Positions 6,401 to 60,664 of a DNA stretch of 64,000 nt are shown here, one piece after another (the first letter of the stretch is position 1; each line of letters begins with the position of its first letter). The stretch covers positions 12,089 through 76,088 of IMG/VR virus record IMGVR_UViG_3300022668_000040; one strand, 5' to 3'. The position numbers and the translations under genes are program-made. Source of the DNA: a virus. The notes under the pieces are model-generated. The model ran no database searches and had not been told where the DNA came from. It saw only the letters and a list, made by a program, of their open reading frames with translations.

Positions 6401-9400
6401 CCAAAAAGGTTAGAAATGCGAAGATAAACGCAAAAATGGATGAGCGTGAAGCATATAAAGAGTTTTTTGCAGTTGTGCGTAAGTTAGAGAAAGAAGCTGA
6501 GGAAGTAAAAAAGGGGGACGCATCAAATACAGCGGCACAAACTATAAAAGAATTGCAAATTGCAGAAAAGGCATATACAGATCACGTTAATGAGCTAGAG
6601 GCTAAATATAAGGGAAAAGCAGAATTACTTGAAAAATATCTATCAGAAGCAGAAAGGGATTTTCAAGAAAAGCAAAAATCTCTTTTACAGCAAAGCACAG
6701 ATCCTGCTGTTTTATTGGCAAATACCAAGGTTCAAATAAAAATCATTGAGGAGGAATATTCCAAATTTTATAAAGAAATAGAATTGGCATCTTTAAAAGA
6801 ACATGCAAATAAAAAGGCTCTAAATGAAAAAAGAAGGGATTTAGAGTTGGAATTATCTGAAAAAATTAAAAGTATTTGGGAAAGTGTTGAGGACAGTATT
6901 GAAGAAAAAAATTCAGCCACTGCACGTACAGTGTTAAAGAATAGACTAGATGCAGAAATTAAAAATAGCAAATTAGTGGCAAAAATAGCTCAACAATCCG
7001 CAAAAGAAACAACCGATGCCCAAATTGCAGTGTATGAGGAAGCAAATAATAAAAGAGCAGTTGAGCAAGAATCTACATTATCCAAAATTGCTACTGCGGA
7101 AACTAATGGTGTTTTGACTCATGAAGAAGCAGAAGCTGCTAAATTACAAGTCTCTTTAAAATATTATGAACAAGCCTATATTGCGGCTAAGGATTATTTG
7201 GCACAAGTAAATAAAGGTCAAAATCCTGATGAATATGAAAAAAGACAAGAGAATCTATTAAGTGCAGAGAAGGCATACTATGCAAAGAGAAAGTCTTTTG
7301 CAGAAAAATTTAATTCTGAAATGGCTTCTATAGCTAAATCTTTGGAGAAAAAAGATGCGGCAAGAAAATCCTCTGTTGAATCTAATTTAGAGAAAATTCA
7401 TAGATTAGAGAATAAATTTGCTGAGGATAATAGTAAAATTCATTCTGATTATGTAGATAAGAGGGAAAAGAAAGATAGAAAGTATGCCGAGACTGTAGAG
7501 AAAATTGAACTAGGTTTATCTGACAAGATAGAAGATATCAATGAAAAATTGGTATCAGATCTTGATAAACTCAATAAAAAACGAACGGAAAATGCTGCCA
7601 ATTTACAGGCTGCCCTTTTAGGTATTGAAAATGATACTGAAGATAAAATCAGAAAGATAAATCAAAGGGGCATGTCTGAATCTGAAAAAGATTTGGACAA
7701 TGAAAAAGCTGCAAGAGAAAAGTTAGCTAAAGCAAAAGAATTACAACAAGAAGCTGAAGCTTCTGGAAACCAAGAACTTGCCAAACAAGCAGAGGATATG
7801 ATTGGACAAGTTCAAGATTTAGCTGAAAATTTAAAAGATGCTAAAGATGCCAAAGAATTATTATATGATTCTAAAGATGCCCTAAAAGATAATGCAGCTA
7901 TTCAGAATACTATAGACAACCTTGCTTTAGAGAAGAAGGAGATAGAAGCAATAGCAGAGGTAGAGAAAAAGCGACTGGAAGCTAAAAATGATGCTGAAAA
8001 AGCCCTTACTGCCGCAGACAAAGCACACGAACGTGATTTGGCAGATATAGAAGAGTGGCAAACAAAAAAATTGGCTGCTACCGAATTAGCGTTTAATAAA
8101 GCTATATCTTTGGAAGATGCGAGACATCAAAAGGCAATGACTAACTTAGATAAGGAAATTGCCAAATTAAACGAACGAATGGGCTCAGTAAAAGAATTAT
8201 CTTCTGTTACGGAATCTAGTTCTATTCAATCTAATGCCAAAGAAGATCAAAAGAGAACATCTTCAAGCAATGTTGAAGAAAATTTAAAATCTGTGACAAC
8301 TGTGGCAGATACAGCATTAGAAAAGTTAGGTATTGTTGACGAAAAAGCAAAGCAAGTTGCAAATGATAGTACATCTAAATTTACCTCTTCTATGCAGGAG
8401 ATGACCCAAAATGCTGTGGATGAACTTGAACAATTTATTGTTATCACCACAGCAACTGGGGAAAAGGTAATAACCACCGCTAACACAATGTCTACCGGAT
8501 TCTCTGCTTTTGGAGATGTAGTAAAAACAGAACCTTTGGCTGCCATAGAGAAACTAAAAGAAAATACCATATCTATTAATGGAAAAGAAATTTCCATTCC
8601 TGTAAATTCTTCAGAAATATTGGAAGCATCGGATACCGTAGAAAAAATAAAGAATTCTTCGAGTTCTGAAATGGATATTACGGTAAATACGAATGATGCT
8701 TTAGAAAACATTGATGAAGTACAAAAAGAAGCTACAACAGAAATTTCTATACCCGTACAGGTGGATACAGAGGGGGTTGACACTTCCATAGAAAAGATAA
8801 ATTCTGCAATTACTGATATGGAGAATCCTTCAATAACTGTAGTTGTGGATAGAGAAGAGTTAGATTCACTTATCTCTTCGGTTCAATTATTAAGTGAATT
8901 GGAAACAGTAGTGGTTACATCTTCTGTAGTTGGGGCAGATAATGTTCAAGAATTGCTTACCTGGATACTTACATTAAATGGGGAAACGCCAAAAAATGTA
9001 AAAGTAATCACTGATGTTTCAGGTTTGGATGACACAGTCAAATTAAACCAATTGATAGATTCGTTAATAAATAAAACTGTAAAAGTGATAACTGAGGTAC
9101 TAGGACTTTCTGATGTACTAAAATTAAAAGCATCCATTGATAGCCTAAAAGATAAGACAGTAACTGTTACAACTATCAAAAAAACAGTAGAGAAGAAAGC
9201 TGGGGGAGGAGAAGTTGGATTTTTTGCTGAAGGTGGTTCTGTTTTTCGTAGATTAACAAAAAGGTTTATATCCGCTGGATCTGGGCTTCGGGATGATGTT
9301 CCAGCAATGCTCATGAAAGGCGAATTTGTCCACACTGTGGATGCAGTAAGGAAATATGGACGTAATTTTATGGAAATGGTAAACAACGGATCATTTCCAG

Positions 9401-16158: not shown

Positions 16159-17136
16159 ATGGCATCAGTATTTAGATCATTTCAAGACACGGGAGCCCCT
16201 ATTTTAGCAGGAAATACTTTGGGGTCACTTATCACTTTGTTAAAAGCTGTATTGGTAGATGGTTATGGGTCATTCGATCCTTTAGGATGGGAAGTGGTAT
16301 TTGATGATACTGCTTCTCACTCCTGTGTTTTTAGACCTTTAGGTGGGGATCTTCGTCCATTTGTGCTAGTTCAAGATAATATGGGTTCCACCAGTGACCA
16401 ATACGCAAAGGTCACTGTATTTGAATCTATGTCCTCTATTTCTGAAGGATTTTTTCAATGTCCGTCGGGTGAATCAGATTTGGATAATTATATAATCAAA
16501 TCAAAGTATAATACGAGTGTGGGTATTCCTTGGGTAATAATAGGAGATAATCTTGGATTTTGGTTATTAACTAGGCCATACGACCAGACTGGAACAGGAG
16601 CTGATCTTAATAATGGATCTCTGCATTATCCTCATTATATTGGATATTTTCCGTGTTTTATCTTAGAAAATAAATATAATTTTATTACTATTTTAAACAA
16701 TAAAAGTGATGTAATGTTTCGCGCCAATCTTGAAACATATGGATGTTATATGCAAAGAGATCCGTTTACTTCAGAAATAGGGGCTGTCAAGTTCACCCCA
16801 ACAATTCAATATAGTGCGGGTGATAATGCATTTGGAAACAGTTGTCCAAACTCTTCCCCTAGAAGTGGTAAATATATGTATGAACCAGTTGTTGTGGTAT
16901 ATGATAACTGTCCCACAATAGGGCTGCTTCCAGGGTACTTTAGTATGCTTTGGCAAACTGAAGTTGAGGGTGCTTCTTGGTATACACAGAGTGAAGAAGA
17001 AAGAACCCCATTTTTTGAATATGGGCAAAATTCATCAATGTACATATTTGCCCAAAGAGTACGGGGTTACTCATATAATAGTGTAGTGAGCAGGGGATCT
17101 ATATTAGTTGGAGAGGGTTTTCGCAATGCATATTAA
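16159..17136 (+). CDS. Tail/virion structural protein
   Basis: GAP.L.G..GSLI.LLKA.LV.GYG...LGW N-terminus typical of phage tail proteins; GAGGA SD. Confidence 0.65.
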   Translation: MASVFRSFQDTGAPILAGNTLGSLITLLKAVLVDGYGSFDPLGWEVVFDDTASHSCVFRPLGGDLRPFVLVQDNMGSTSDQYAKVTVFESMSSISEGFFQCPSGESDLDNYIIKSKYNTSVGIPWVIIGDNLGFWLLTRPYDQTGTGADLNNGSLHYPHYIGYFPCFILENKYNFITILNNKSDVMFRANLETYGCYMQRDPFTSEIGAVKFTPTIQYSAGDNAFGNSCPNSSPRSGKYMYEPVVVVYDNCPTIGLLPGYFSMLWQTEVEGASWYTQSEEERTPFFEYGQNSSMYIFAQRVRGYSYNSVVSRGSILVGEGFRNAY

Positions 17137-20100
17137 AAAGAGATATATTTCTAATGTTTTTTTAGCAGTAACGGCTAAACAAAAATTATCAGGTAACGTA
17201 TCCTCCCCTAGTAGTGGTCTATCTACAATTTTTATTTTAGATAGAAACACTATGAATTTGATTGCGACCACAATAGCTGATCCACAAACGGGAGATTGGG
17301 TTTGTTATGTTCCTTTTAGAAATGATGAGCAATTAATTGCTATTTGTCGAGATGAATCAGGAGATTTTAACGCAGACATATATGATAGAATTTCTCTTTG
17401 TACCAATGATTATGTGCATGTAGTGGAATTCAATTCCATTGTTATTCCAGGAGAAGATTTGTTTTTTATGTTGGAATCTCCCAAGCAAACGGGCGCAGTG
17501 GCTGGATTTCCACATGAAGTGCAACATAGAGATTTGAAATCCACAATAAGTACCATTGGTTGTGGTAATAATTTGAATGAGAGTATATTTAAAAATATTA
17601 GTGAAGTACAACTTTCTATTGGGGAGGGTGGGGATATTCCAGAAGTAGTTCCAGGATCGTTAATAAATGGGAATTCTGGTATTTGGCCTGAACTAACCAC
17701 TGATGATAGGGAAAATAGAGGAGTAAAAACACCAGATATATTTGGAGACAGCTCTTGCAGGTTATGTTTAGATTTTAAGGATGGCCTTCTCATAGATAAA
17801 ACAGGCACCCAAATTGTGGAATATGCAAAGAGTCAATTTAGGGCAGCCCCCGGAAAATACAATAGTGGATTTGGTAACGCAAATTTATCATTTCACAATA
17901 TTTTTGATTTAGGAATAAATTTTATCTCGGGGGAAGCAAATGCTCTCTCATTTTGGGTAAATATTAATGAGCTTGAGTACACAGGTGCAGACACATATAT
18001 TGTACACCATTCTTCTGATTATGGTTTCAGATTGGGTTTTAGACCAAGCACACGAACAATATATCTATCTGTTGGTTCAGATACTAGCTGGAGTATAAAT
18101 AATCAATATATTACTCTACCCGTGTATCCTTACGTATATTTTGCATACAACAGTTGGGTCCATTTTGTGGTAAGCATCGGGGTTTCTTCTTCCAAAATAT
18201 ATGTTGACGGGCAGTTGGTAAAAACTTTTACTGGTAATGGGTTCACTGCATCTACTGGAACGTTGATATTCAATTCTGAGCTAACCAATAGAGGAACTAA
18301 AAGCACATTCGATATCATCAGGGTATTTAATAGAGAAATTACTGATGGTGAGGCAATACAGCTATTTGAAGAAAAGAAAATGTCCACTGTTTCTGTAACA
18401 GGGATATATGGCGTAAATCCAGCTATAACAGATAAATTAATCCTTAATGGACTTTCATCTCCTCCTATATGTAACTTTAGGCTGGATGGCCATTTTGCAG
18501 ATGTTTCCGATAGTAATTTCTCAGGATATCTTGATGGTGTATTCTTCAATAACGATTTTATAAATTTTGATGGAACTAATGGAATACATTCCTCAGAATT
18601 GTCTACAGATATAGGAACAGGTTCTGTGGGGGATGAAGGTGCAATTGATTTACTTTGTAAATTTTCTTTAGAAGATATAACCAATATAGGCACTAGCTGT
18701 TTATATAAATCTGGGGATAATTCTAATGGGATTGCTTTAGGATTTAATGCCGTAGGGGATTTATGTATTTTCGGGTGCCTTTCTGGAACAGTAACTGCTA
18801 TTTCCATCTCATTGTCATATTTAACAGATAATGGGTGGTATTATGTTATTGGCTCTAAAAAAGAACTAATATTATTAAATGAAAAATTAGAAAAAATTGC
18901 CAGTTCAAAAGGGACCATAGAAGTTGGAAACGGGAGTAACCAACAATCCGTAGGTATAGTAGTTGCTGGGAGCCCTCTTACAGCAACGGCGGGAGGCCCT
19001 ATTCAAGGATTTATTGGAAGTATAGAAAAAGTTGGTATATACGAGGAAAATACTCTTTCTGTTGATTTTTTAGATAATTTGCAATTAGCCTGTGAAGTAG
19101 GATCTACAGGGCAGCAGTGCTATGGGGAAGTGTCTAAATGGGATATTTTAGATGATGAAATAATCATATGGGTGAAAGTTCCGACTATCTCCAATGCCGA
19201 GGACACAGTTCTTAGATTTTATTTTTCTGCCGGTGCAGTGCCCAATACTACCTACATGGGACATACTGGAGATGTCCAAGCTCAACAAGTTTGGGATTCA
19301 AATTATGTGGCTGTATATCATTTAGAAAGTGATGGAACAACCATCAAAGACTCTACTGCAAATAGTAATAATTTAACTCTATCCGGGGGTTCTATTGAAG
19401 AAGGAATAATCTTTGATGGAGTATCAGATTATGCTTTTGTAGATTCTTCAACTTTAAAATTAGGGGATGGAGATTTTTCATATGAAGTATTGTTAAAAAG
19501 AACATCCCAACAATCTTCATTAGGAATTGTTATGACTGGAGGACAAACAGGCAGTTTGCTTTCTCCTATTTTGGGCATCATGCCAAATTCAGAGGTGATT
19601 CAATTTGGTACGGATGTGGGGTATATTTATGGAGGAACACTATCATATGATTCTGAGTATGTAGCTGCTACCTATGATGGGTTAGGTCAATTTTCTGGAT
19701 TATCTCTGTACGTTGATGGGGCAAGCATCAGTACAAATACACAAGGAGCATTTTCTGGATTTTCTAATTCAGCAGAATATTTTACTGTTGCGGCTGAATT
19801 AGATGATGGTGCTCTTTCTAAGTTCTTTGAAGGAAATATTCAAGAAGTGCGTGTATCTTCCATCAAAAGAAATGCAGATTGGATAGCACTTACAAATAAA
19901 TCTATTTCCGACAATTTAATAACATTTATTGGAAATTATGTTAAACCATCCCTGTCTGGGTATGAAAATGCTAAATCAATGCATATTCAGATAGATGCGA
20001 CAAAAATTGGGGAACAGTTATCTAATTTTCCAATTTTGTTACAAATAAATGCAAATGCAGGTATTAATGGAACAGATCTTTCTGAAATACTAACTGAGTT

Positions 20101-23100
20101 GCGAACACCAAAAAATCAGGAAGATGATCTATTATTTGGATTTATTGGAAATCAAAAAGATGGGTCCAGCGTTATTGCAGATTTTTCTATACATAATAAG
20201 CAGATAACAAATGAGGGATGTACTCATTCCACGCAGTATATGAATAAAACTCTAGCTTCAGTTTTGTTTGAATCTAGTAGATTATTGATAGAACCATTTG
20301 ATCTTCCTCTTTTTTGGAATGATATGACCATTGAATGGTGGGAATTTCGTATTAAAGGTGTATCTGCCAGTGCTATTCTTACTAATAGAGTACCAGGAGG
20401 AGAGTATACAGGAATGCTGATAGGATATCAATATGGTAGCAATATGTTGTGTTACATGAGATCAAATAAAAGTGCTTCGTGGGATATTTTAAGTGGAGTA
20501 TCTATGGGCGCTATAGATTATCTCACTTGGAATCATTTTGCCATTTCTAAAAAAGGGAATATATATAGAACATTTAAAAATGGTATTAAAATTAGTGAAG
20601 TTTCCTCTGATTTGATTCCTTATAATTCCACAAATCCAATAAAAATTGGACAAGATCAGAATTACTTTTCTGGAGCAATACAGAGTTTGCGGGTATCTCA
20701 AAAGTGTAAATATGTGGAGAATTTTACACCAGTTATGAACTCAGATGGGCTTGTGTCCTATTCTAGGTTAGCCATTGAACACGTTCAAACAGGTCAGCAA
20801 TGTTATGCTGAGATTGCTTGTATAAAAGAAGATAATTTAGATATTTTTGTTAATATTCCCTCAATTTCAGATACTACAGATGAGGATTTATTACTAATAT
20901 ATGGCAATGAGTTAGACGAGAACTCTGACTATGTTTCCATTACCGGAGAAGATCGAATTAATTCGTTACTCAGATCTTGTGTTATCAATGATGAGTACTC
21001 AAACTCTGTTGTATGGAGAACTCCAATTCCGCCAGAAATGTTTTCAGATATTCCTTCTGGGAAAAAAATAGCTTTTATATTTCCGCATATGGGTAATGAT
21101 TACACTGTACAGGGTGTGTTTATAGGGCTACAAGCATCTTCAGGAGGGGCCTCAGATTTTGAACCAGGAACCAAAGTCCAACTAACATTTAATGGTGGAG
21201 ATAATGGATCTTTAATTACATCCACTAATAATACTACAGATTTTGTTTTATTTAATTTTGGGGAATTAGATACTATAGTTATCTCCTTTCAACAAGTTAG
21301 TGGTAGTCAGCCTCGTAATACTGGAGAAAATGGGCTTACTACCTATTATAAATTTACTACAGATGAAGTATCCGGGGATGATGTAGTAAGTGGATTGTCT
21401 ACTACACCATATATTATGAGGCCATTACATGTGATTACGGAGCCCGAAAGACCATATCAAAAGGTTTGGGATGATTCTTTCCTATCTGTATACCATTTAG
21501 TAAACAGCAGTAGTGGTGCAGAATCTGTGTACGACTCCACTATTAATAAAAATCATTTAACCCCATATGGTAGTTTGCCAGGGAAAATTACCACAGAGGA
21601 TGGACTTTCATTTTCTAGTAGTTCAAACGATTATATAAATGGGACGGGGGATTTTTCCAGCATTATAGATGAATATTCCCTGGAAGTGTTCCAAAAATGG
21701 AATACGATTCCTGGGGAATGGGACACTGTTATTCGTATAGGGCAAGCAAATCAAGCCGGGGCTATTATGATGGGGACATACTCAACATCTTCTTATTGGG
21801 ATGTTGGTGTATGGTATGATCATTTACAATCCTCTACTCCTTTAAATAGTGATATGCAGCATACTGCCATAACATTTGAAAATGGGGATGCTAAAATTAT
21901 TCAAAATGGAGTTTTTGGAGGAACTAATTCTGTAGCTTTACAAACTTTTACTGAGTTTTCTACTATTTTTATTGGTGGGGATACTCAAGGAAGTGGAACA
22001 GAAATGAGTGATCAGACTATTAAGGAGATACGTATATCAAACACTGCAAGGAGTCAGCATTGGTTACGGGCCACAGAATACTCTCTTCATGATAATTTAT
22101 TATTATATATTGATCATTCTGCGCATGAATCCCCGTTATCTGGATGGGAAGAGCATCAGCCAGTAACGGCAATAATTTCTGCAAATGATGTAAATACTAC
22201 GGTAACAGACTTTCCTGTTATGATACGAATTTCACAAGAATCAGGCAAAAATGCTGTGAATTTATTTCATATTTTGAATGAGTTTAGAAGCCAAGGCACT
22301 TTTGCAGGAAATGTTATCCAATCATATGAATTTAATTCTACAAACAGATTAGATGGTATGTTTATGGATAATTTGCAATTTTCCTCCAACAACTTGTTTA
22401 TGGAAAATCACGCAATGGAGTTTTTTCAAGATGGGAGTTCTACTATAACTCTTTCACCAAAATTAAGAGATGTATTGGTTCAAGAGGATCTCACCTATTG
22501 TTTTTGGATAAATCCTTATGCTAGTAGGAATACTTCAGGATCTGATACAAAAAAATCCATATTTGGTACCAAATATAGTGCTGAGGTAGCTATAATATAT
22601 CATTATGCAGAATATGTAGAATTTTATATGGATAGTGACTTAATTAGAACCTCAGATGGGAGTGTTCCATTACATAAATGGACTTTTGTGGTTTTTGTAA
22701 GAAATAAAGAGGAAGATACGGTCAAAATTTATCTAAACAATAAAGTGGCTGCACAGGGAACTTATAATTATTCCTTATCTTATTCAAATTGGCCTATACT
22801 TCTTGGAGATAGTCAAACTGATTATCCATTTGTTGGTGGACTTTCAGATTTTATGATATTTGACAGAGCTTTACTCCCAGAAGAAATACATCAGATATAT
22901 TTTAATAGAAGGTATGTAACGTTCAAAAATGTTTGGAGTGTATCTATATTTACGGCACAAAGTGAATTTCCTTTGTTTTTAAATGAAACTATTTCTTCTA
23001 TTAATATAGAAGCCACAGAAAATGGACAATATGTGTCCCTGTGTTTTACCACTGATCAAAATACCTATTGGATATATTCTGGTTCTAACTGGGTTGCGAT

Positions 23101-23671
23101 AGCTTCTAATGATGAAAATATTCATGGGGATGTTGGAAGTGATGCTTGGCATTTTAAAAATTCTGCTGATGTATGGACATTATCTTCTAGTAATGAACCT
23201 ATGAATACAATTGCTATGGCATTAGATTTCCAAGAAAATAGGATGGGCTATAGTACGGTAAATAATTTAAACCAAACAGCTATCCATGAATTATTTTCTT
23301 CAATAGAAGGTGTTTTTGATGTGGCTATAGGGTTAAAAACTAATAATGATTATGAGTTGCCAGAAGTAACAAAGGTAAAATACAATAATTCAGAATATTG
23401 GGTATCTAAAGTATATGATTTAGCTTATATGGATGGGGCAATAGTCTCTTCAAATGTTAGTTGGATTTATAGGGATTCTTCAGACCATATCAAAGTGTTT
23501 GTTATGATCACTGGTAATCCCAATTGGGTAGAATGCACTAATAACAGTCCTATCCCTGGAATTACTTACCAAATGAATACAGTAGGAAAAGTTATGCAAT
23601 TTAAAGTGGTATTTGACTTTGATACAAATGCAAGCCCTGATGATATAGAGCTTGCAGTAAAATTGATATGA
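17126..23671 (+). CDS. Very large putative receptor-binding tail protein with LamG/concanavalin-like and DUF2341-like repeats
   Basis: Repeated LamG motifs (W.H.....YVDG, I.E.R.S...R...W) and DUF2341-like segments (IWVKVPTIS, FVNIPSIS; VWDSNYVAVYHL, VWDDSFLSVYHL). Confidence 0.75.
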   Translation: MHIKKRYISNVFLAVTAKQKLSGNVSSPSSGLSTIFILDRNTMNLIATTIADPQTGDWVCYVPFRNDEQLIAICRDESGDFNADIYDRISLCTNDYVHVVEFNSIVIPGEDLFFMLESPKQTGAVAGFPHEVQHRDLKSTISTIGCGNNLNESIFKNISEVQLSIGEGGDIPEVVPGSLINGNSGIWPELTTDDRENRGVKTPDIFGDSSCRLCLDFKDGLLIDKTGTQIVEYAKSQFRAAPGKYNSGFGNANLSFHNIFDLGINFISGEANALSFWVNINELEYTGADTYIVHHSSDYGFRLGFRPSTRTIYLSVGSDTSWSINNQYITLPVYPYVYFAYNSWVHFVVSIGVSSSKIYVDGQLVKTFTGNGFTASTGTLIFNSELTNRGTKSTFDIIRVFNREITDGEAIQLFEEKKMSTVSVTGIYGVNPAITDKLILNGLSSPPICNFRLDGHFADVSDSNFSGYLDGVFFNNDFINFDGTNGIHSSELSTDIGTGSVGDEGAIDLLCKFSLEDITNIGTSCLYKSGDNSNGIALGFNAVGDLCIFGCLSGTVTAISISLSYLTDNGWYYVIGSKKELILLNEKLEKIASSKGTIEVGNGSNQQSVGIVVAGSPLTATAGGPIQGFIGSIEKVGIYEENTLSVDFLDNLQLACEVGSTGQQCYGEVSKWDILDDEIIIWVKVPTISNAEDTVLRFYFSAGAVPNTTYMGHTGDVQAQQVWDSNYVAVYHLESDGTTIKDSTANSNNLTLSGGSIEEGIIFDGVSDYAFVDSSTLKLGDGDFSYEVLLKRTSQQSSLGIVMTGGQTGSLLSPILGIMPNSEVIQFGTDVGYIYGGTLSYDSEYVAATYDGLGQFSGLSLYVDGASISTNTQGAFSGFSNSAEYFTVAAELDDGALSKFFEGNIQEVRVSSIKRNADWIALTNKSISDNLITFIGNYVKPSLSGYENAKSMHIQIDATKIGEQLSNFPILLQINANAGINGTDLSEILTELRTPKNQEDDLLFGFIGNQKDGSSVIADFSIHNKQITNEGCTHSTQYMNKTLASVLFESSRLLIEPFDLPLFWNDMTIEWWEFRIKGVSASAILTNRVPGGEYTGMLIGYQYGSNMLCYMRSNKSASWDILSGVSMGAIDYLTWNHFAISKKGNIYRTFKNGIKISEVSSDLIPYNSTNPIKIGQDQNYFSGAIQSLRVSQKCKYVENFTPVMNSDGLVSYSRLAIEHVQTGQQCYAEIACIKEDNLDIFVNIPSISDTTDEDLLLIYGNELDENSDYVSITGEDRINSLLRSCVINDEYSNSVVWRTPIPPEMFSDIPSGKKIAFIFPHMGNDYTVQGVFIGLQASSGGASDFEPGTKVQLTFNGGDNGSLITSTNNTTDFVLFNFGELDTIVISFQQVSGSQPRNTGENGLTTYYKFTTDEVSGDDVVSGLSTTPYIMRPLHVITEPERPYQKVWDDSFLSVYHLVNSSSGAESVYDSTINKNHLTPYGSLPGKITTEDGLSFSSSSNDYINGTGDFSSIIDEYSLEVFQKWNTIPGEWDTVIRIGQANQAGAIMMGTYSTSSYWDVGVWYDHLQSSTPLNSDMQHTAITFENGDAKIIQNGVFGGTNSVALQTFTEFSTIFIGGDTQGSGTEMSDQTIKEIRISNTARSQHWLRATEYSLHDNLLLYIDHSAHESPLSGWEEHQPVTAIISANDVNTTVTDFPVMIRISQESGKNAVNLFHILNEFRSQGTFAGNVIQSYEFNSTNRLDGMFMDNLQFSSNNLFMENHAMEFFQDGSSTITLSPKLRDVLVQEDLTYCFWINPYASRNTSGSDTKKSIFGTKYSAEVAIIYHYAEYVEFYMDSDLIRTSDGSVPLHKWTFVVFVRNKEEDTVKIYLNNKVAAQGTYNYSLSYSNWPILLGDSQTDYPFVGGLSDFMIFDRALLPEEIHQIYFNRRYVTFKNVWSVSIFTAQSEFPLFLNETISSINIEATENGQYVSLCFTTDQNTYWIYSGSNWVAIASNDENIHGDVGSDAWHFKNSADVWTLSSSNEPMNTIAMALDFQENRMGYSTVNNLNQTAIHELFSSIEGVFDVAIGLKTNNDYELPEVTKVKYNNSEYWVSKVYDLAYMDGAIVSSNVSWIYRDSSDHIKVFVMITGNPNWVECTNNSPIPGITYQMNTVGKVMQFKVVFDFDTNASPDDIELAVKLI

Positions 23672-44447: not shown

Positions 44448-44523
44448 TGGTTCCCGAGTGGAGACTTGAACTCCAAACCTATCGGTTATGAGCCGATGGC
44501 TCTACCAGTTGAGCTACACGGGA
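44448..44523 (-). tRNA. tRNA with CAT anticodon (Ile2-like or elongator Met), encoded CCA
   Basis: TCCCGTG TA GCTC-AACTGGTA-GAGC C ATCGG-CTCATAA-CCGAT AGGTT TGGAG-TTCAAGT-CTCCA CTCGGGA A CCA; lacks the initiator GGG/CCC anticodon stem; U6-U67 mismatch. Confidence 0.92.
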
Positions 44524-44961: not shown

Positions 44962-46584
44962 TTATTCAGAAATATATTGAGAAATTGCCGCTGGAGTATT
45001 TGGAGAAAACCCGACAACATCCAACATATTATCATAATCTGGCCGCGCTATAGAAAACCTACTTGCAGTCATGCTGCAAACTACAAGTTTTACAGAATGC
45101 CCTACTTTATTTTGATATATATCCAATGCTTGCCAAGGATGAATATTCCCATGAGCAGTTTCATTATCTGTGTAAATCACTATTGCATCCACATCCCAAT
45201 TTCGTTCTTTGGCATATAGCATAGGTAACGCACAGTCGGTTCCGCTAAAAGGTAAATTGGAAATTATCTGCAATGTTTGATGTAGTGTCATGCCAGAAGT
45301 AAGACACAGCTCCCCTACACACCCATTTGCACTCAGATGTTTAACATTACGGGGAGCTCCATGTGTGGTGAATCCAATTATTCCAGTGTGTTCTTCAACT
45401 CGCATAGTAACCATAGCCAGAGCAGCAGATGCCATTCTGCAATCCAACAAGGGGGACCCGGATACTAAATTACATGCCATTGATCCTGATACATCCAATG
45501 ATAATAGTATCTTTTTACCCGTGGACTTTACATTTTTAAACGACAAATAAAACGCAGTGTCGAGAATCTGTAAAACTTTAGCGTTCACACTCCAAGATAA
45601 TGATCCTTTTATCCCCCTTCCTCTATTATAAACCAATATAGCATTAAATAGAGATAACGGGTGAATCCTACTATGCAATATACTCTCACGGTTACTCAGT
45701 GCCTCCAAAGTTTTGTTTAATGAATCACTAAACGAATCATGCATTCCTAAAGAAGCCATTTTTCCCAAATTACGCACAAGTGCAGTGTATGGCATGTTTT
45801 CCAACAATGCCTCCCACACATCTCTATTTCGCAGCAATTCTGTGGGGACTACCTCTCTAGTCAATGCGTACTTTTTAATTATACCTGGGGCTTTAAAAGA
45901 TTTGCATTTTCTAATCTTTCTTGCCCCTTCTGCATAAGGAGATACTTTTGGAATTTTTCTTATTCCTCCAGTAACGTAACCAAACAATCTGTTTTGATCT
46001 TCATTTTTTGGTTGTGCATGACACATTCGCAATACATCAGCATGTGTCCATCCCGATCTATTTTGGTATTTTAATAATTGATAAGCCAAAACATCTGTAT
46101 TTTTAGAGGTGTACCAATTTGCAATCTGCTCTCGTAAATTTCTACCAAACCCTCTCATATTCTTAATAAAAGAGACAAAGGTAAGAATATGTGTACCTAT
46201 TCGACAAACTGCATTTAAGTGTTGCAACGCATATTTTCTGGTTTCCAAATCTTCAGTGGATGCGGCCATAGCCAAACAAAAAATAGCGGCATCATTGCTT
46301 GCAGACAAACCTTCTTTTGATACAGATACTATAAGGTCTACTGCCCGCTTGCCATCTGATTTAATACACTTCTGTGCTGATTTACATGCCTCTACAGTAA
46401 GAGCCCTTTCCGAGACATAATAGGTCCCTCCTTCAGTTCCTATAACCAAGAGCCTTTCAAAATGTGCCCATTTTGAAATTTTAAAAGATATCCCTCCGGC
46501 ATTATTCCTCTTTTGTTCTTCTACTCCGGGAACCTTATCTACTTGTCCGGTTACTTTATTACCATAATGTTTATTGTAATTCAT
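44962..46584 (-). CDS. rsr: Ro60/Rsr (TROVE + vWA) RNA-binding protein
   Basis: NNAGG..F, RLLVIGTEGGTYY, KYQNRSGWTHADVLR..H, MPYTALVRNLGKM, RIHP, LDVSGSM (MIDAS), GTDCALPM, YTDNET; GAGGAG SD. Confidence 0.96.
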   Translation of the reverse strand: MNYNKHYGNKVTGQVDKVPGVEEQKRNNAGGISFKISKWAHFERLLVIGTEGGTYYVSERALTVEACKSAQKCIKSDGKRAVDLIVSVSKEGLSASNDAAIFCLAMAASTEDLETRKYALQHLNAVCRIGTHILTFVSFIKNMRGFGRNLREQIANWYTSKNTDVLAYQLLKYQNRSGWTHADVLRMCHAQPKNEDQNRLFGYVTGGIRKIPKVSPYAEGARKIRKCKSFKAPGIIKKYALTREVVPTELLRNRDVWEALLENMPYTALVRNLGKMASLGMHDSFSDSLNKTLEALSNRESILHSRIHPLSLFNAILVYNRGRGIKGSLSWSVNAKVLQILDTAFYLSFKNVKSTGKKILLSLDVSGSMACNLVSGSPLLDCRMASAALAMVTMRVEEHTGIIGFTTHGAPRNVKHLSANGCVGELCLTSGMTLHQTLQIISNLPFSGTDCALPMLYAKERNWDVDAIVIYTDNETAHGNIHPWQALDIYQNKVGHSVKLVVCSMTASRFSIARPDYDNMLDVVGFSPNTPAAISQYISE

Positions 46585-46608
46585 ATCGACTCCTCTTTGG
46601 AATTAGAA

Positions 46609-46684
46609 ACCCCGACCACACAACGGCAAGGCCGTAGGCAGAAGCAGAAGCTAGGCGAAAGGCAGAAGCAGGTGTGGACGGGGT
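46609..46684 (-). ncRNA. Stem-loop with pyrimidine-rich repeat loop in the Ro60 leader
   Basis: ACCCCGUCCACAC / GUGUGGUCGGGGU stem enclosing CUGCUU/CUGCCU repeats and an ACGGC-CUU-GCCGU hairpin. Confidence 0.5.
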
Positions 46685-46969
46685 ATACAGTATTTTTAGG
46701 AAAATAGGGCAGCTGATTTTTTGTTTGCGGCCAGCTTTATAACATCTGCATGCTGGATGTTAACCGCTTAAATTCAGCCATAGTCATTTACCCATATAGT
46801 GTGGGCGAAATTTAATACCGGGTATTCTACTGTGCATGCAAATAATAGTGAACAAAACAAACATGATTATCACTATTATTTGATTCAGCATGAAAATTAA
46901 CATAAGCAACATTGATTATAGGTTTAACTTTTTACTTCCTACTTCTTCATAGAGTAAGTAAAAATAAAT

Positions 46970-47030
46970 ATGGGCAAAATGTAAATTCAATCTTTCTGAC
47001 TCAATGCGATAACGAATTTTCGCGGCCCAT
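46970..47030 (-). ncRNA. Minimal Y-RNA-like RNA (unit A, about 61 nt)
   Basis: AUGGGC-C(bulge)-G / U-GCCCAU helix, AAAUUCG/UGAAUUU second helix, UUAUC. Confidence 0.75.
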
Positions 47031-47037
47031 TTTGATA

Positions 47038-47391
47038 TCACTTAATCAATCTTAATTTTGAATGTTTGTTTTTCTTTGGTTTTTTATCTTTTTTTGAAGC
47101 ACTCATAGCTACAGGAAGTATATAACGCGGATTCCCTTGCATTGTGAATTCTTCCGATCCATTTATTTGAGGAACTCTAAGTGTCCAAACAACGCGCCGG
47201 GGAGGCATAGACAACATGTCTATTGTTACATGAAACCAGTCATCTTTTTTAGTTTCATCTCTCACAAATTCTCGTATTATGCCCCACATTAAAGAAGAAT
47301 CTTCTCCAAAAAATACCAGAACCGTACTTCCTTGTTCAGCACTTTTTGCTTGTGTTACAATAGATTTTACTTGTTTGATAAGTTGTTTCAT
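47038..47391 (-). CDS. Hypothetical protein embedded in the Y RNA array
   Basis: 117-aa ORF between Y units A and B; W..V......P...V.W.L.......FTM.G core, basic tail ending KLRLIK. Confidence 0.65.
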   Translation of the reverse strand: MKQLIKQVKSIVTQAKSAEQGSTVLVFFGEDSSLMWGIIREFVRDETKKDDWFHVTIDMLSMPPRRVVWTLRVPQINGSEEFTMQGNPRYILPVAMSASKKDKKPKKNKHSKLRLIK

Positions 47392-47415
47392 CGAAATTCC
47401 CAATAAAAATAAAAA

Positions 47416-47537
47416 GTGGATAAAATAAAGCTCACAATGCGCGTCCTAACCACTAGACGATCACCGAATAGTCGGTGAGCAGGATTTGAACCTACGTTTC
47501 GGTCTCCAAATGACGATAAGTGAACTTAACGACCCAC
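47416..47537 (-). ncRNA. yrlA: YrlA-type Y RNA with circularly permuted tRNA domain (unit B)
   Basis: GUGGGU-C-G / U-AUCCAC helix; UUAUC; T arm GUAGG-UUCAAAU-CCUGC, closed acceptor stem UCACCGA-CUAU-UCGGUGA, D arm GUCU-AGUGGUU-AGGAC. Confidence 0.88.
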
Positions 47538-47697
47538 AAAAATTTAAAGTGTCCCAGGGTTTCAATTTTAAGCAATACTAATAGGGTGGCTACTTAAAAT
47601 ATGGCAGAGCAAACCTGGGTAATGCCTTAGCCTGCATTTTTTACCTAAATTTGTGCTGAATGGTCCACTATCCCCTTCAGCACTCCTTTACGCTTAA

Positions 47698-47830
47698 TTA
47701 TGGACAAAATGTGAAAAATGAGTATTCTTTAGACTATTGCTCTACCAGCTGAGCTACACCTTCTGTGAAGATGAATGGACTCGAACCATCGACAAACAGT
47801 TTTCAGTAATCATTTTTCTTCGGCCCATAA
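47698..47830 (-). ncRNA. yrlA: YrlA-type Y RNA with circularly permuted tRNA domain (unit C)
   Basis: UUAUGGGC-C-GAAG / UUUU-GUCCAUAA helix; T arm GAUGG-UUCGAGU-CCAUU, acceptor CAUCUUC-ACA-GAAGGUG, D arm GCUC-AGCUGGUA-GAGC, ACUGU/AUAGU stem. Confidence 0.88.
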
Positions 47831-47838
47831 ACTTGTAA

Positions 47839-47900
47839 TTGAGCAAATTGCATATTTGGAGGACATCATTAACAGTGATAACCAAATACCTTCGGCCCAA
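47839..47900 (-). ncRNA. Minimal Y-RNA-like RNA (unit D, about 62 nt)
   Basis: UUGGGC-C-GAA / UUU-GCUCAA helix, GUAUUUGG/CCAAAUAU second helix, UUAUC. Confidence 0.8.
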
Positions 47901-47911
47901 ATTTGTAAAAG

Positions 47912-48038
47912 TACCCACCTGCCACCTAGAGTGATATGTGCCACACTATGCGGCGAGATAAGTGGCAGGTGGTATTAAATTCGGATCAACGGGGGAGGAA
48001 TGGGTTGTGAGAGCCGTTTTATTTCCCGCTGATCCGAA
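47912..48038 (-). ncRNA. Two further hairpin RNAs at the head of the array
   Basis: CCACCUGCCAC-UUAUC...GUGGCAGGUGG (47915-47972) and UUCGGAUCAGCGGG...CCCGUUGAUCCGAA (47980-48038). Confidence 0.5.
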
Positions 48039-48055
48039 ACTCATTTCTTATACAC

Positions 48056-48084
48056 AAAATACTCTAAAACATTTTTTGTGTCAA
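48056..48084 (-). promoter_or_regulatory. Sigma70-type promoter upstream of the ncRNA array and Ro60
   Basis: TTGACA (48084-48079)-N17-TATTTT (48061-48056); first hairpin begins 18 nt downstream of the -10. Confidence 0.65.
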
Positions 48085-58483: not shown

Positions 58484-59503
58484 TTACCCTTCTTTAATTA
58501 TAGAAGAAACTATAGAAAATTTTTCCGTATCTAAATCTACTCTCACTCTATCAGCAGATATCACAAATGTTGTTGAATACGACAACATATGTTGAAAAAA
58601 TCGGGGATTTATAGAAAATTTTAAAATAGGTCCTGAATAATCTAAGTCGGATGTATGTCGGAATGTGCCTGAAATTGAACGGGAGCGCATGGTCATTTTC
58701 CCATCCTCCAATTCAACGAAAATAATGGGATTTTCTTTTTCTGTAAATAATGCAGCTGTGTTCACATTATCAAGGGATTCCTCAGAAAATTGTACTGTTT
58801 CCCCATCAAATATAAAAAATTTACTAAAATCGGGAAATTCTCCAGAAGTTATTCTCACTGAAAGTATACACCCATCCTCATTTTTAAAGTGTATCCACGC
58901 TTTAGAGATACCAATCTCTACAGGATCTATTGCGGATATATGCTTTACTTCCTTAGCGGGAATTAATAAACTATCCACAAAAGCTGGCCCCTCAAACTCA
59001 GCCCTTGCTATTCGATTATTATCCGATGCCAAAGCTGTATTTCCTTGCACAAAAATATAAGACAAAGTGCTCCCTGTATCTTTCTGTATTGCTGCCTCTG
59101 CGCACATCTCCAAAGATGATACAAAGCTGGTAGAAATCGGAATCCATGTTGTTGATCTTAACGATTTATTAACCATAAGAATTCTTCGTTTCATTTCTTT
59201 ATCCTCAAATAAGGACAATTTTGAAGTAGATTTTTTAGTGCGTATTTCTAAAGTATCTCCTTTTTCTTGTATTAATAGATCCTTCGCAGATAAATTACTG
59301 AGTAAATTATTGAGATCCGTTGCTTTCACTATAGCAGACAAATTCGTGCTTATTGGGTGCCTAACAGTCATTCTATTACTGTAAGACACAATATATTTTC
59401 TATAAAATACATAATTGCCCATCCCTCCAATAGTATCATTAGCTGATACCCCAGGACGAACTTTTTTTACTGCATTTTGTAAAGATTCTTTACTTATTTT
59501 CAC
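58484..59503 (-). CDS. dnaN: DNA sliding clamp (beta/DnaN-like)
   Basis: MKISKESL..A..KV, ASDNNRIA, GEFPDF, INPRFF..ML; 339 aa; upstream of polA. Confidence 0.75.
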   Translation of the reverse strand: MKISKESLQNAVKKVRPGVSANDTIGGMGNYVFYRKYIVSYSNRMTVRHPISTNLSAIVKATDLNNLLSNLSAKDLLIQEKGDTLEIRTKKSTSKLSLFEDKEMKRRILMVNKSLRSTTWIPISTSFVSSLEMCAEAAIQKDTGSTLSYIFVQGNTALASDNNRIARAEFEGPAFVDSLLIPAKEVKHISAIDPVEIGISKAWIHFKNEDGCILSVRITSGEFPDFSKFFIFDGETVQFSEESLDNVNTAALFTEKENPIIFVELEDGKMTMRSRSISGTFRHTSDLDYSGPILKFSINPRFFQHMLSYSTTFVISADRVRVDLDTEKFSIVSSIIKEG

Positions 59504-60623
59504 TATTTGTCTCCCACATATTAATATCGGATTCTGTTAATCTCCATCTATCCTTAGCTTCTTTTGACTTTATATATTGATCGAAAGATATACCAACATA
59601 ACCATGCCGAATAGATTTCATTATCCAAAAAGTTCTAAACGCTTTTGTCAATCTCAACGTCCAATGTTTTCCCACAAAATCTGTTCTTTTATGGAGAGTG
59701 TTTAATGGGCGAAAACATTGAGGATATGCCCTAATTCCCAAAGCCAAGCATTGTTCCATTCTGTAGTTTGCATCATGGGGCTTATCTACAAAGTTGTATA
59801 AAACATAAGCCATAAAGCTCTCTTTGTTTACCCCTTCCTTTTTTAGCAATTTTATGGCTGACTGAAAAGTTCCATCTTCCTCTAATCTATCAAAAGCTGT
59901 ACGCAGCCCATGCCGAACATACTTAACCCTTCCCAATATTTTTGCTATTTCTTTGGTTACAAATTTACAATCTACTCCTTCCAACATTACTTTAATTTTT
60001 CTTTCTAATAAAATATCCACTATGCCTGTTAATCTTTTTGGGTCCATAGAAGAAATATTATTATCCATTATAACTACATTCTTAGTATCAGAATGTAGGT
60101 GATTAAGCCAATTTTTATTATACCATCTATCTTGTTCAATTCTCCAAACTGCGCAGTAAGCGCATCTATTAGGACATCCTCTTGATGTAAATACCCAAGA
60201 GAATCCATCCCACTTATTGTTCCTCGGGATCATCATAGATTTATCAGGAGCTTGGGAATCTAAAATTTTTGAATATCCTTTAAATACAAATACATTACCA
60301 AATTTTTCAAATTGCTCGGGCATTAAAGTAGCGAATACTCCCCCGACTATCACCGGTGTATCAGCATTAAAAAATCCTTTATTTCGTATAATAGAAAACA
60401 CAGTTTCAGAATAATATGTAAACAGTGTGGTTATACATATTAAATCAAACTTTTCAGGAAGAACTGTATTGGAAAATTTTGAAGATATCCCTTTGCTGGT
60501 TAAGTATGTTTTTATTTTAGCTAAAGCTAAAGGTGGATATTTCTTTCGATGATCAGGCTCAACCAAAAGCACATTTTTAGCTCCATTTAATTTCTCAAAT
60601 AGAGTATTTTCATCTATTATCAT
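59490..60623 (-). CDS. Radical SAM enzyme with B12-binding-like N-terminus
   Basis: YPPLAL.KI, VGGVFATL, TSRGCPNRCAYC, MDNN. Confidence 0.85.
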   Translation of the reverse strand: MIIDENTLFEKLNGAKNVLLVEPDHRKKYPPLALAKIKTYLTSKGISSKFSNTVLPEKFDLICITTLFTYYSETVFSIIRNKGFFNADTPVIVGGVFATLMPEQFEKFGNVFVFKGYSKILDSQAPDKSMMIPRNNKWDGFSWVFTSRGCPNRCAYCAVWRIEQDRWYNKNWLNHLHSDTKNVVIMDNNISSMDPKRLTGIVDILLERKIKVMLEGVDCKFVTKEIAKILGRVKYVRHGLRTAFDRLEEDGTFQSAIKLLKKEGVNKESFMAYVLYNFVDKPHDANYRMEQCLALGIRAYPQCFRPLNTLHKRTDFVGKHWTLRLTKAFRTFWIMKSIRHGYVGISFDQYIKSKEAKDRWRLTESDINMWETNSENK

Positions 60624-60630
60624 GATCAAT

Positions 60631-60655
60631 GTACCGGGCAATAATTGCCCGGTAC
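60631..60655. other. Perfect hairpin between the Lys-rich ORF and the radical SAM gene
   Basis: GTACCGGGCA-ATAAT-TGCCCGGTAC. Confidence 0.5.
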
Positions 60656-60664
60656 CCCCCAATC

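What the first reader, a model, noticed from the sequence alone, without database searches (positions are those of the whole stretch)
44962..48084. Phage Ro60 locus preceded by an array of four different Y RNAs
Seen: on the minus strand a TTGACA-N17-TATTTT promoter is followed by about 1.5 kb of stacked stem-loops, one ORF and an intact Ro60 gene. Four units share the same terminal helix with a bulged C: AUGGGC-C-G/U-GCCCAU, GUGGGU-C-G/U-AUCCAC, AUGGGC-C-GA/UU-GUCCAU and UUGGGC-C-GA/UU-GCUCAA. The changes between copies are compensatory, and each helix is followed by a second helix and UUAUC/UUAC. The apical domains all differ. Established: the bulged-C helix is the Ro60-binding site of Y RNAs; Y RNAs tether Ro60 to effectors such as PNPase in Deinococcus; Ro/YrlA pairs are already reported in bacteria and some phages. 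Inference: one Ro60 ring served by interchangeable RNA adaptors with a constant handle and variable payload. This could redirect host RNA decay or counter RNA-targeting defences. I do not know of a described phage array this diverse.
Basis: partly seen in the sequence, partly recalled or inferred. Interest (0 to 1): 0.95.

Follow-up and report, generated by a model that had tools for sequence, protein, structure and literature searches.

The report
Phage Ro60 gene with four Y RNAs
An uncultured tailed phage carries a gene for the ring-shaped RNA-binding protein Ro60 preceded by four different small "Y RNA" genes that share the Ro60-docking helix; this is real, but it is a further example of a known protein-RNA partnership, and rows of four to eight such RNAs turn out to be common beside Ro60 genes.

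Summary
Observation confirmed. On the minus strand, an intact Ro60 gene (44962-46584; TROVE plus Ro60-vWA domains) is preceded by four Y-RNA-like units. Each has a terminal helix with a bulged C, a G·U or GA/UU closure, a second helix, then UUAUC or UUAC.

Two units (U2 47700-47828, U3 47416-47537) carry a permuted tRNA-like module, the YrlA architecture. Two (U1 47839-47900, U4 46970-47030) are about 61-nt hairpins.

Covariance models built only from other Ro60 loci pick out exactly these four in the whole 76-kb phage record:
- U2: 79 bits
- U3: 49 bits
- U1: 35 bits
- U4: 24 bits

The claim of exceptional diversity does not hold. Across 240 Ro60 loci the same design occurs 299 times on the Ro60 strand and 24 times on the opposite strand. 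Rows of 4 to 8 units occur in other viral contigs and bacterial MAGs.

The literature already covers much of this. It describes several Y RNAs per bacterium, YrlA in 22 phages, and a Thermus phage Ro60 that binds two Y-like RNAs and host PNPase. This scan has also noted such arrays on other DNA.

Verdict: a new member of a known kind. Function (Ro60 tethered by Y RNAs to host RNA enzymes) is inferred, with no expression data.

The parts
48056..48084 (-). sigma-70-like promoter candidate TTGACA-17-TATTTT, in the gap after the upstream ORF (stop at 48101)
   Evidence: 10 of 12 matches, the best in the region. Promoter-like sites are not enriched over shuffles, so this is a candidate only.
47976..48043 (-). 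leader hairpin A: 18-bp stem with a large loop
   Evidence: the 148-nt leader folds at -56.7 kcal/mol, z -5.85, 0 of 200 shuffles as good. No Rfam or R1/R2 match. Role unknown.
47915..47972 (-). leader hairpin B: 14-bp perfect stem, with UUAUC inside the stem's 5' strand running into the loop; lacks the bulged-C handle
   Evidence: Not recognised by R1 or R2. Not counted as a Y RNA.
47839..47900 (-). U1, short Y RNA (62 nt): lower stem UUGGGC/GCUCAA, bulged C, GA/UU, 8-bp upper stem, UUAUC, small apical hairpin
   Evidence: R1 (built without window sequences) scores 35 bits, E 1e-6. Fold. It aligns end to end with Rfam Y_RNA at 16.4 bits, below the gathering score of 38.
47700..47828 (-). U2, YrlA-type Y RNA (129 nt): handle AUGGGC-C-GA/UU-GUCCAU, 9-bp second helix, UUAC, then T-arm, 7-bp acceptor-like hairpin and D-arm
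   Evidence: R2 79.4 bits, E 1e-17. Rfam YrlA 46.5 bits, E 8e-9, below the gathering score of 69. Fold z -3.1.
47416..47537 (-). U3, YrlA-type Y RNA (122 nt): handle GUGGGU-C-G/U-AUCCAC, 8-bp second helix, UUAUC, V hairpin, T-arm (GGUUCAAAUCC), 7-bp acceptor-like hairpin, and a D-arm of a different type from U2; followed by a U-run
   Evidence: R2 49.1 bits, E 3e-10. Fold z -3.3. No Rfam YrlA hit at E<=10.
47038..47391 (-). ORF of 117 aa (ATG start) between U3 and U4; function unknown; not part of the conserved Ro60/Y module
   Evidence: No Pfam or PHROG match. No tblastn hit in 240 Ro60 loci. ESM Atlas look-alikes are hypothetical proteins of 122-126 aa.
46970..47030 (-). U4, short Y RNA (61 nt): handle AUGGGC-C-G/U-GCCCAU, second helix of about 7 bp, UUAUC; followed by a U-rich tail
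   Evidence: R1 24.4 bits, E 5e-4. R2 25.8 bits through the handle. This is the weakest of the four; fold z only -1.5.
46609..46684 (-). 12-bp hairpin with a large pyrimidine-rich loop, followed by UUUCUAAUU, about 25 nt before the Ro60 start codon; a possible terminator/attenuator or processing element
   Evidence: -32.2 kcal/mol, z -5.39. In the related contig L084 a canonical terminator hairpin with a T-run sits at the same place. The role is inferred.
44962..46584 (-). Ro60 (Rsr-like) gene, 540 aa, intact
   Evidence: TROVE and vWA_Ro60 domains. PDB Ro60/Rsr matches at E 5e-98 to 4e-91. The MIDAS-type D364/S366/S368 are invariant in the clade alignment.
44448..44523 (-). tRNA-Met(CAT), same strand, downstream of Ro60 and a 130-aa ORF
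   Evidence: ARAGORN. Rfam tRNA 62.9 bits.

Best explanation
This is a phage-encoded Ro60/Y-RNA ribonucleoprotein module. It sits in the early replication and recombination gene block of a tailed phage.

The phage makes a Ro60 ring protein and four small Y RNAs. They are probably cut from one or two precursor transcripts that start near 48056.

Each RNA docks on Ro60 through the same terminal helix, which has a bulged C followed by G(A). This part is shown by sequence, by models from other loci and by covariation.

The apical parts differ. U2 and U3 present two different permuted tRNA look-alikes (T-arm, 7-bp acceptor-like hairpin, D-arm), which is the YrlA design. U1 and U4 are minimal hairpins of the metazoan Y/sbRNA layout (lower stem, upper stem, UUAUC).

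The mechanism is inferred, not shown here. The analogies are Deinococcus Rsr-Yrn1-PNPase and Thermus phage phiLo Ro60-Yrl-PNPase. On that basis the RNAs would gate the Ro60 cavity and tether the ring to host RNA enzymes (a 3'-5' exoribonuclease such as PNPase, and tRNA-recognising enzymes). Different Y RNAs would then give Ro60 different partners during infection.
For: Protein:
- TROVE and vWA_Ro60 domains.
- Close to solved Ro60/Rsr structures.

RNAs:
- R1 and R2, built only from other loci, hit exactly U1 to U4 in the 64-kb window and the 76-kb record.
- Rfam YrlA hits U2 at E 8e-9.
- U1 aligns full length to Rfam Y_RNA.

Family-level support:
- The strict design occurs 299 times on the Ro60 strand and 24 times on the opposite strand over 2.05 Mb of Ro60 loci.
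- All CM hits in 14 multi-unit loci are on the Ro60 strand (53/53 and 36/36).
- Stem pairs that were not used to select sequences covary: pair 2-74 is paired in 43 of 49 sequences with six pair types.
- Pairing is 85-88% against 37-50% when the partners are slid.
- Handle types covary: GGGC/GCCC, GGGU/AUCC, GAGC/GCUC.
- The nearest relative fetched with upstream flank (L084, Ro60 52% identical) has three units with GAGC/GCUC handles in the same place.

Literature:
- The GNCGAAN0-1G and YUAY motifs, Y RNAs within 4 kb and on the same strand as Ro60, and at least two Y RNAs per species (PMC4201824).
- A phage Ro60 that binds two Y-like RNAs and host PNPase (PMC12135203).
Against: - There is no expression, processing or binding data for this uncultured phage, and no RNA run was listed.
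- No unit reaches an Rfam gathering score.
- U4 is weak: 24 bits, fold z -1.5.
- U3 and U4 lack the full GNCGAA motif (GUCGUU and GCCGCG).
- The effector (PNPase or another) is pure analogy; the host is unknown.
- Covariation in the handle and second helix is partly built in, because my scanner required pairing there.
Confidence: 0.85

Rival explanations
1. The units act mainly in cis, as a structured leader of the Ro60 mRNA. On this view Ro60 binds the handles in its own 5' UTR to autoregulate, or they act as terminators or attenuators. They would not be released as stable trans-acting Y RNAs.
For: - All units lie upstream of Ro60 on the same strand, behind a single promoter candidate.
- U3 and U4 end in U-runs, and a strong hairpin with a U-rich tail lies just before the Ro60 start.
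- In bacteria, Y RNAs are made as polycistronic precursors together with neighbouring genes (PMC4201824).
Against: - In other loci the same units lie downstream of Ro60 (56 of 289 scanner hits) or up to several kb away. That does not fit a 5' UTR role.
- A protein-coding ORF interrupts the array.
- Homologous RNAs in Salmonella, Mycobacterium, Deinococcus and phage phiLo are discrete Ro60-bound RNAs (PMC4201824, PMC12135203).
Confidence: 0.07
2. The tRNA-like units are decaying or rearranged phage tRNA genes, and the short units are chance hairpins. The shared terminal helix would have no Ro60-related function.
For: - Phages often carry tRNA arrays next to Ro60, for example Gordonia phage Sixama.
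- Rfam tRNA gives a weak partial hit inside U2 (19 bits).
- A loose handle pattern alone is expected about 11 times per 64 kb by chance.
Against: - The T-arm comes before the D-arm, with a closed 7-bp acceptor-like hairpin. This is the ordered YrlA permutation, not a broken tRNA.
- Models from unrelated loci score the units at E 1e-17 to 5e-4 and find nothing else in 76 kb.
- There is a strong strand bias toward Ro60 across 240 loci.
Confidence: 0.03
3. The Y RNAs act as decoys rather than adaptors. Their tRNA look-alike domains would soak up host tRNA-targeting enzymes or defence nucleases, or signal to RNA-repair systems. Ro60 would serve mainly to stabilise them.
For: - U2 and U3 present two different tRNA-like modules with 7-bp acceptor-like stems.
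- YrlA RNAs are substrates of tRNA modification enzymes and RNase P (PMC4201824).
- Ro60 stabilises Y RNAs in all systems studied (PMC4726728).
Against: - There is no direct evidence.
- No RNA repair or anticodon-nuclease countermeasure genes lie next to the locus. The neighbours are DNA ligase, endonuclease VII, dCMP deaminase, 5'-3' exonuclease and a UvsX-like recombinase.
- This reading does not explain the two short units.
Confidence: 0.05

Closest known systems
Bacterial and mycobacteriophage Rsr (Ro60) with YrlA/YrlB Y RNAs (Chen et al. 2014, PMC4201824; Rfam RF02553)
   Same: - Ro60 gene with Y RNA genes within 4 kb on the same strand.
- A 5' GNCGAA-type motif in a bulged terminal helix.
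- A YUAY (UUAUC/UUAC) motif that starts the V region.
- A permuted tRNA-like module (T-arm, acceptor-like hairpin, D-arm) in U2 and U3.
- A shorter partner RNA without the tRNA-like domain (like YrlB) in U1 and U4.
   Different: - Four units instead of the one to three seen in the cultured phages I checked.
- None reaches Rfam's YrlA gathering score (U2 46.5 against 69; U3 no hit).
- U3 and U4 depart from GNCGAA.
- The Ro60 is at most 40% identical to any Ro60 in the deposited phage genomes.
- An unrelated ORF splits the array.
Thermus phage phiLo Ro60 with Yrl1 and Yrl2 and host PNPase (PMC12135203; PDB 9KOP, 9L5Y)
   Same: - A phage-encoded Ro60 with Y-like RNAs encoded upstream.
- A CGAA-bearing stem-bulge-stem design.
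- It is the model for co-opting a host exoribonuclease.
   Different: - The proteins are only distantly related: E 4e-6 to phiLo Ro60, against about 1e-95 to animal Ro60 and Deinococcus Rsr.
- Four RNAs rather than two, two of them with tRNA-like modules.
- Nothing has been tested biochemically here.
Metazoan Y RNAs and nematode stem-bulge RNAs (Rfam RF00019, RF01656; PMC4726728, PMC4450293)
   Same: - A lower stem with a single bulged C followed by GA, then an upper stem, then UUAUC at the 5' end of the loop. U1 and U4 have this layout.
- U1 aligns end to end with the Y_RNA model.
- RF01656 scores above its gathering cut-off on sister short units beside Ro60 in two Anaerolineae MAGs.
   Different: - U1 scores 16.4 bits against a gathering score of 38, and U4 has no hit.
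- Bacterial-type transcription rather than Pol III.
- The units lie in a tandem row next to the Ro60 gene.
- There is no evidence of a role in DNA replication.
Deinococcus radiodurans Rsr with Yrn1/Yrn2 (the RYPER complex with PNPase)
   Same: - Several small RNAs encoded upstream of rsr and made as a polycistronic precursor with a tRNA.
- The Y RNA tethers Ro60 to PNPase and gates the cavity (PMC4201824, PMC4726728). This is the mechanistic template used here.
   Different: - Yrn1 has a different order of tRNA-like arms and is evolutionarily distant from YrlA.
- It is a cellular stress-response system, not a phage one.

Membership tests
Ro60 / Rsr protein family | TROVE (HEAT-repeat ring) domain | tested here: met
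   PF05731, E 1.3e-36, 127 bits against a cut-off of 23. Also found in the whole-record search.
Ro60 / Rsr protein family | C-terminal Ro60-type vWA domain with a MIDAS DxSxS motif | tested here: met
   PF25045, E 7.5e-49. D364, S366 and S368 are invariant in the 29-sequence clade alignment. DVSGSM aligns with DVSASM of human Ro60.
Ro60 / Rsr protein family | Full-length similarity to Ro60 proteins of known structure | tested here: met
   9nen (a chain deposited as RO60) 5e-98, 1yvp (60-kDa SS-A/Ro) 1.6e-95, 2nvo (RSR) 3.9e-91, each over about residues 19-535.
YrlA (Rfam RF02553) | Score at or above Rfam's gathering cut-off (69 bits) | tested here: not met
   U2 scores 46.5 bits (E 8.3e-9). 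U3 has no hit at E<=10. The Rfam model also missed every unit in 8 multi-unit loci that my model R2 scores at 60-90 bits, so the Rfam model is narrow.
YrlA (Rfam RF02553) | Permuted tRNA-like module: T-arm, acceptor-like hairpin, D-arm, in that order, enclosed by the terminal stem | tested here: met
   Met for U2 and U3. Not present in U1 and U4, which are YrlB-like short forms.
YrlA (Rfam RF02553) | GNCGAAN0-1G motif near the 5' end (Chen et al. 2014) | tested here: inconclusive
   U1 and U2 have GCCGAAG. U3 has GUCGUUAAG and U4 has GCCGCGAAAA, which depart from the motif.
YrlA (Rfam RF02553) | Encoded within 4 kb of Ro60 on the same strand | tested here: met
   386 to 1316 nt upstream of the Ro60 start, same strand.
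YrlA (Rfam RF02553) | Bound and stabilised by Ro60; carries tRNA-type modifications | not testable with these tools
   Uncultured phage. No RNA run was listed.
Metazoan Y RNA / sbRNA (RF00019, RF01656) | Lower stem with a single bulged C, upper stem, UUAUC at the 5' end of the loop | tested here: met
   Present in U1, U3 and U4; U2 has UUAC. The features are as defined in PMC4726728 and PMC4450293.
Metazoan Y RNA / sbRNA (RF00019, RF01656) | Score at or above the Rfam gathering cut-off | tested here: not met
   U1 scores 16.4 bits against 38 for Y_RNA. U4 has no hit. No RF01656 hit in the window.
Ro60-linked Y RNA family as defined here (models R1, R2) | Significant score to covariance models built from Ro60-adjacent units of other loci | tested here: met
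   U1 35 bits, U4 24.4 bits (R1). U2 79.4 bits, U3 49.1 bits (R2). No other hit at E<0.01 in the 76-kb record.

The most novel reading that the evidence does not exclude
The short units (U1, U4 and their many relatives beside Ro60 genes of phages and bacteria) may be true homologues of animal Y RNAs and nematode sbRNAs. They share the lower stem with bulged C, the upper stem and the UUAUC motif. On this reading the animal-type Y RNA design is shared with prokaryotes and their viruses. Rows of 4 to 8 different Y RNAs would then form an exchangeable adaptor set that lets one phage Ro60 ring engage several host RNA enzymes, for example to blunt RNA-based defences.
Probability: 0.15. Interest if true: 0.6.

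Novelty: new member of a known kind. Interest (0 to 1): 0.3.

Why it matters
It adds a clean, well-delimited example of a phage Ro60 module carrying both classes of Y RNA: tRNA mimics and minimal hairpins.

The survey done here shows that rows of several Y RNA genes are a general feature of Ro60 loci in uncultured phages and bacteria. Current Rfam models and GenBank annotations largely miss this: no unit was annotated in the four cultured phage records I inspected.

That is useful for annotation and for choosing test systems. It does not open a new kind of biology. The open questions stay open:
- what phage Ro60 particles do during infection;
- why several adaptors are kept.

Tried and rejected
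I could not fetch the contigs of the closest Ro60 relatives (P0002-P0028, 52-61% identity). Unit-by-unit orthologous covariation could therefore not be tested. Only L084 (52%) had upstream flank; L083 (56%) has just 107 nt upstream.
2. The search for related loci with the single protein in viral contigs found nothing. The profile search gave loci at 46% identity or less.
3. Rfam at gathering thresholds finds only tRNA-Met in the window.
4. No RNA holder was listed among public runs. Read laying was not used, because the only holder was a small-share DNA run.
5. The reviews PMC10870794 and PMC6047535 are not held. The supplementary tables of PMC4201824 are not held either. The largest published count of Y RNAs per locus could therefore not be read.
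6. The 117-aa ORF has no Pfam or PHROG match and no homologue in 240 Ro60 loci, so I rejected it as a conserved part of the module.
7. Leader hairpin B contains UUAUC but has no bulged-C handle and no model hit. I rejected it as a fifth Y RNA.
8. A 5'-half-seeded test of 3' complementarity was too permissive: 2136 seeds, 445 with a complement against 251 in a permutation control. It supports pairing on the Ro60 strand only (110 against 117 on the opposite strand) but is a weak statistic.
9. The segments between U2 and U3, and most of the 385 nt between U4 and Ro60, fold no better than shuffles (z -0.6 to -1.5).


Full report
**Context**

The window is 64 kb of a 76-kb IMG/VR virus record, estimated 69% complete. 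It is a tailed phage:
- Structural genes: major tail protein and other tail proteins.
- Replication genes: DNA polymerase, sliding clamp and clamp loader.

Beside the locus lies a T4-like recombination and nucleotide block: UvsX-like recombinase, gp32-like protein, 5'-3' exonuclease, ATP-dependent DNA ligase, endonuclease VII and dCMP deaminase. The Ro60 locus sits inside this block on the same (minus) strand.

**The observation**

The ORF at 44962-46584 is an intact Ro60. It has TROVE and Ro60-type vWA domains. Full-length matches to solved Ro60/Rsr chains (deposited as RO60, SS-A/Ro and RSR) are at E 5e-98 to 4e-91. MIDAS-type residues are conserved.

Four units lie upstream:

| Unit | Coordinates | Length |
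|---|---|---|
| U1 | 47900-47839 | 62 nt |
| U2 | 47828-47700 | 129 nt |
| U3 | 47537-47416 | 122 nt |
| U4 | 47030-46970 | 61 nt |

Each unit has:
- a 6-8 bp terminal helix;
- a bulged C, then G·U or GA/UU;
- a second helix of 7-9 bp;
- UUAUC directly afterwards (UUAC in U2).

Between the copies, the terminal helix shows three two-sided compensatory changes and two G·U changes.

U2 and U3 then carry a T-arm, a closed 7-bp acceptor-like hairpin and a D-arm. This is the permuted tRNA-like module of YrlA. Their D-arms are of different types. U1 and U4 are minimal hairpins.

A 117-aa ORF of unknown function separates U3 from U4. Two very stable hairpins follow the promoter candidate, and another lies just before the Ro60 start.

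**Is it more than chance?**

A loose handle pattern alone is not significant: about 11 are expected per 64 kb. The heptamer TGGGYCG occurs four times, as chance would give, although all four are here.

The decisive test used models that never saw this window.
- I collected Ro60 loci from viral contigs, metagenomes and species-representative genomes.
- I found units with a scanner, then aligned 49 short and 30 tRNA-like units from other loci (A3, A5).
- From these I built covariance models R1 and R2.

Results of the model searches:

| Unit | Model | Score | E-value |
|---|---|---|---|
| U1 | R1 | 35 bits | 1e-6 |
| U4 | R1 | 24.4 bits | 5e-4 |
| U2 | R2 | 79.4 bits | 1e-17 |
| U3 | R2 | 49.1 bits | 3e-10 |

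Nothing else in the window or in the whole 76-kb record reaches E 0.01.

Rfam's own models give weaker, sub-threshold support:
- YrlA scores 46.5 bits on U2, below its gathering score of 69.
- The metazoan Y_RNA model aligns end to end with U1 at 16.4 bits, below 38.

**Family-level evidence**

Over 240 Ro60 loci (2.05 Mb), the strict design is handle, bulged C, second helix and UUAY. It occurs 299 times on the Ro60 strand and 24 times on the opposite strand. About four fifths of the hits lie upstream of Ro60, at a median of about 440 nt.

The structure covaries:
- In the short-unit alignment, the outer stem pair 2-74, which the scanner did not require, is paired in 43 of 49 sequences with six pair types.
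- Overall pairing is 85%, against 37-48% when partners are slid.
- The tRNA-like alignment gives 88% against 40-50%.
- Handle variants covary: GGGC/GCCC, GGGU/AUCC, GAGC/GCUC.

Caveat: pairing in the six inner handle pairs and in the second helix was a selection criterion.

The nearest relative fetched with upstream flank (L084, Ro60 52% identical) has the same 5'-3' exonuclease gene upstream. It has three units with GAGC/GCUC handles just before its Ro60.

**How unusual is a four-unit array?**

Not very. I counted loci with at least 2.5 kb of flank on both sides, and strict units within 3 kb of Ro60.

| Units per locus | Viral loci (n = 56) |
|---|---|
| 0 | 19 |
| 1 | 18 |
| 2 | 7 |
| 3 | 3 |
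| 4 | 7 |
| 6 | 1 |
| 8 | 1 |

Bacterial MAG loci reach 6 by this strict count.

The covariance models confirm rows of 5 to 8 units in viral contigs (L038, L080, L082, L058, L057, L069, L051, L075) and 8 in two Anaerolineae MAGs. Every hit is on the Ro60 strand. Mixed rows of tRNA-like and short units are common.

Cultured phages that I checked have fewer, and none of the units are annotated:
- Microbacterium phage FuzzBuster: 3
- Gordonia phage Sixama: about 3
- Mycobacterium phage McWolfish: 2
- Sinorhizobium phage Phosso: 0

Earlier notes of this scan report similar phage Ro60 arrays on other DNA.

**What is already known**

- Chen et al. 2014 (PMC4201824) reported the following:
  - 355 YrlA RNAs in 254 bacteria and 22 phages, within 4 kb of Ro60 and on its strand;
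  - the GNCGAAN0-1G motif, and a conserved YUAY that starts the V loop;
  - tRNA-type modifications and RNase P cleavage;
  - at least two Y RNAs in each of three bacteria, and four small RNAs upstream of Deinococcus rsr.
- PMC12135203 shows that Thermus phage phiLo Ro60 binds two phage-encoded Y-like RNAs and forms a complex with host PNPase. The authors suggest this is a counter-defence strategy.
- The UUAUC motif at the 5' end of the loop is described as conserved in nematode sbRNAs and vertebrate Y RNAs (PMC4450293, PMC4726728).

So the handle, the second helix, the UUAUC/YUAY motif, the tRNA mimicry, several Y RNAs per locus and phage carriage are all in print.

**Mechanism**

Shown here: the gene, the four RNA genes and their shared, covarying architecture.

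Inferred from the named systems:
- The RNAs are processed from a precursor.
- They dock on the outer face of Ro60 through the bulged helix.
- They gate its cavity and tether it to host enzymes. PNPase is the documented case.
- The two tRNA look-alikes probably engage tRNA-recognising enzymes.

No RNA data exist for this phage. The host is unknown.

**Verdict**

This is a real and nicely organised phage Ro60/Y-RNA locus. It is a new member of a known kind. The claim of an exceptionally diverse array is not borne out by the survey.

The most novel reading still open is that the short units are true relatives of animal Y/sbRNAs and that multi-Y rows are adaptor sets. Support for it:
- the shared layout;
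- RF01656 scoring above its cut-off on sister units.

It is not demonstrated.

Noticed in passing
L084:4389-4513: In the related phage contig, two 39-nt direct repeats (95% identical, 86 nt apart) end in ...GCGTGGATTGAAAC. They look like CRISPR repeats and lie immediately upstream of its three Y units. They could be a phage mini-array or a repeat mimic. The window has no counterpart.
   Followed up: partly
L234:6640-6705 and L237:6676-6741: Rfam RF01656 (nematode stem-bulge sRNA ceN72-3/ceN74-2) scores 43-44 bits, above its gathering cut-off of 38. The hits are on short Y units just downstream of Ro60 in two Anaerolineae MAGs. A curated animal sbRNA model thus recognises bacterial Ro60-linked RNAs.
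   Followed up: partly
L038:1829-1901, L038:1970-2041, L058:1867-1929: Some Y units in other viral Ro60 arrays enclose a complete tRNA in native order. Rfam tRNA scores 38-46 bits inside units closed by the Ro60-type handle. This layout differs from the permuted YrlA module of U2 and U3.
   Followed up: partly
L250:3548-3789 (Mycobacterium phage McWolfish, MK112548.1): A YrlA-type hit (65.7 bits) overlaps two annotated small 'hypothetical protein' CDSs (genes 228 and 229), and a short-unit hit (25.5 bits) lies just upstream of gene 228. The CDSs are probably over-called ORFs on Y RNA genes. No Y RNA is annotated in any of the four cultured phage records inspected.
   Followed up: no
window 47038-47391 (-): The 117-aa ORF inside the array has no Pfam or PHROG family. 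Its ESM Atlas look-alikes (feature score 0.94, TM 0.86-0.89) are hypothetical proteins of 122-126 aa, mostly from Thermodesulfobacteriota. This is a weak lead to function and perhaps to host range.
   Followed up: partly
window 47915-48043 (-): Two unusually stable hairpins lie between the promoter candidate and U1 (joint z -5.85). One has a perfect 14-bp stem, with UUAUC inside its 5' strand running into the loop. Neither matches Rfam or the Y models. Their role is unknown.
   Followed up: partly
window 3439-11526 and 17108-23671 (+): Two very long ORFs (2695 and 2187 aa) lie in the tail gene block. A radical SAM protein gene (59490-60662) lies next to the DNA polymerase processivity factor. 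Not examined further.
   Followed up: no
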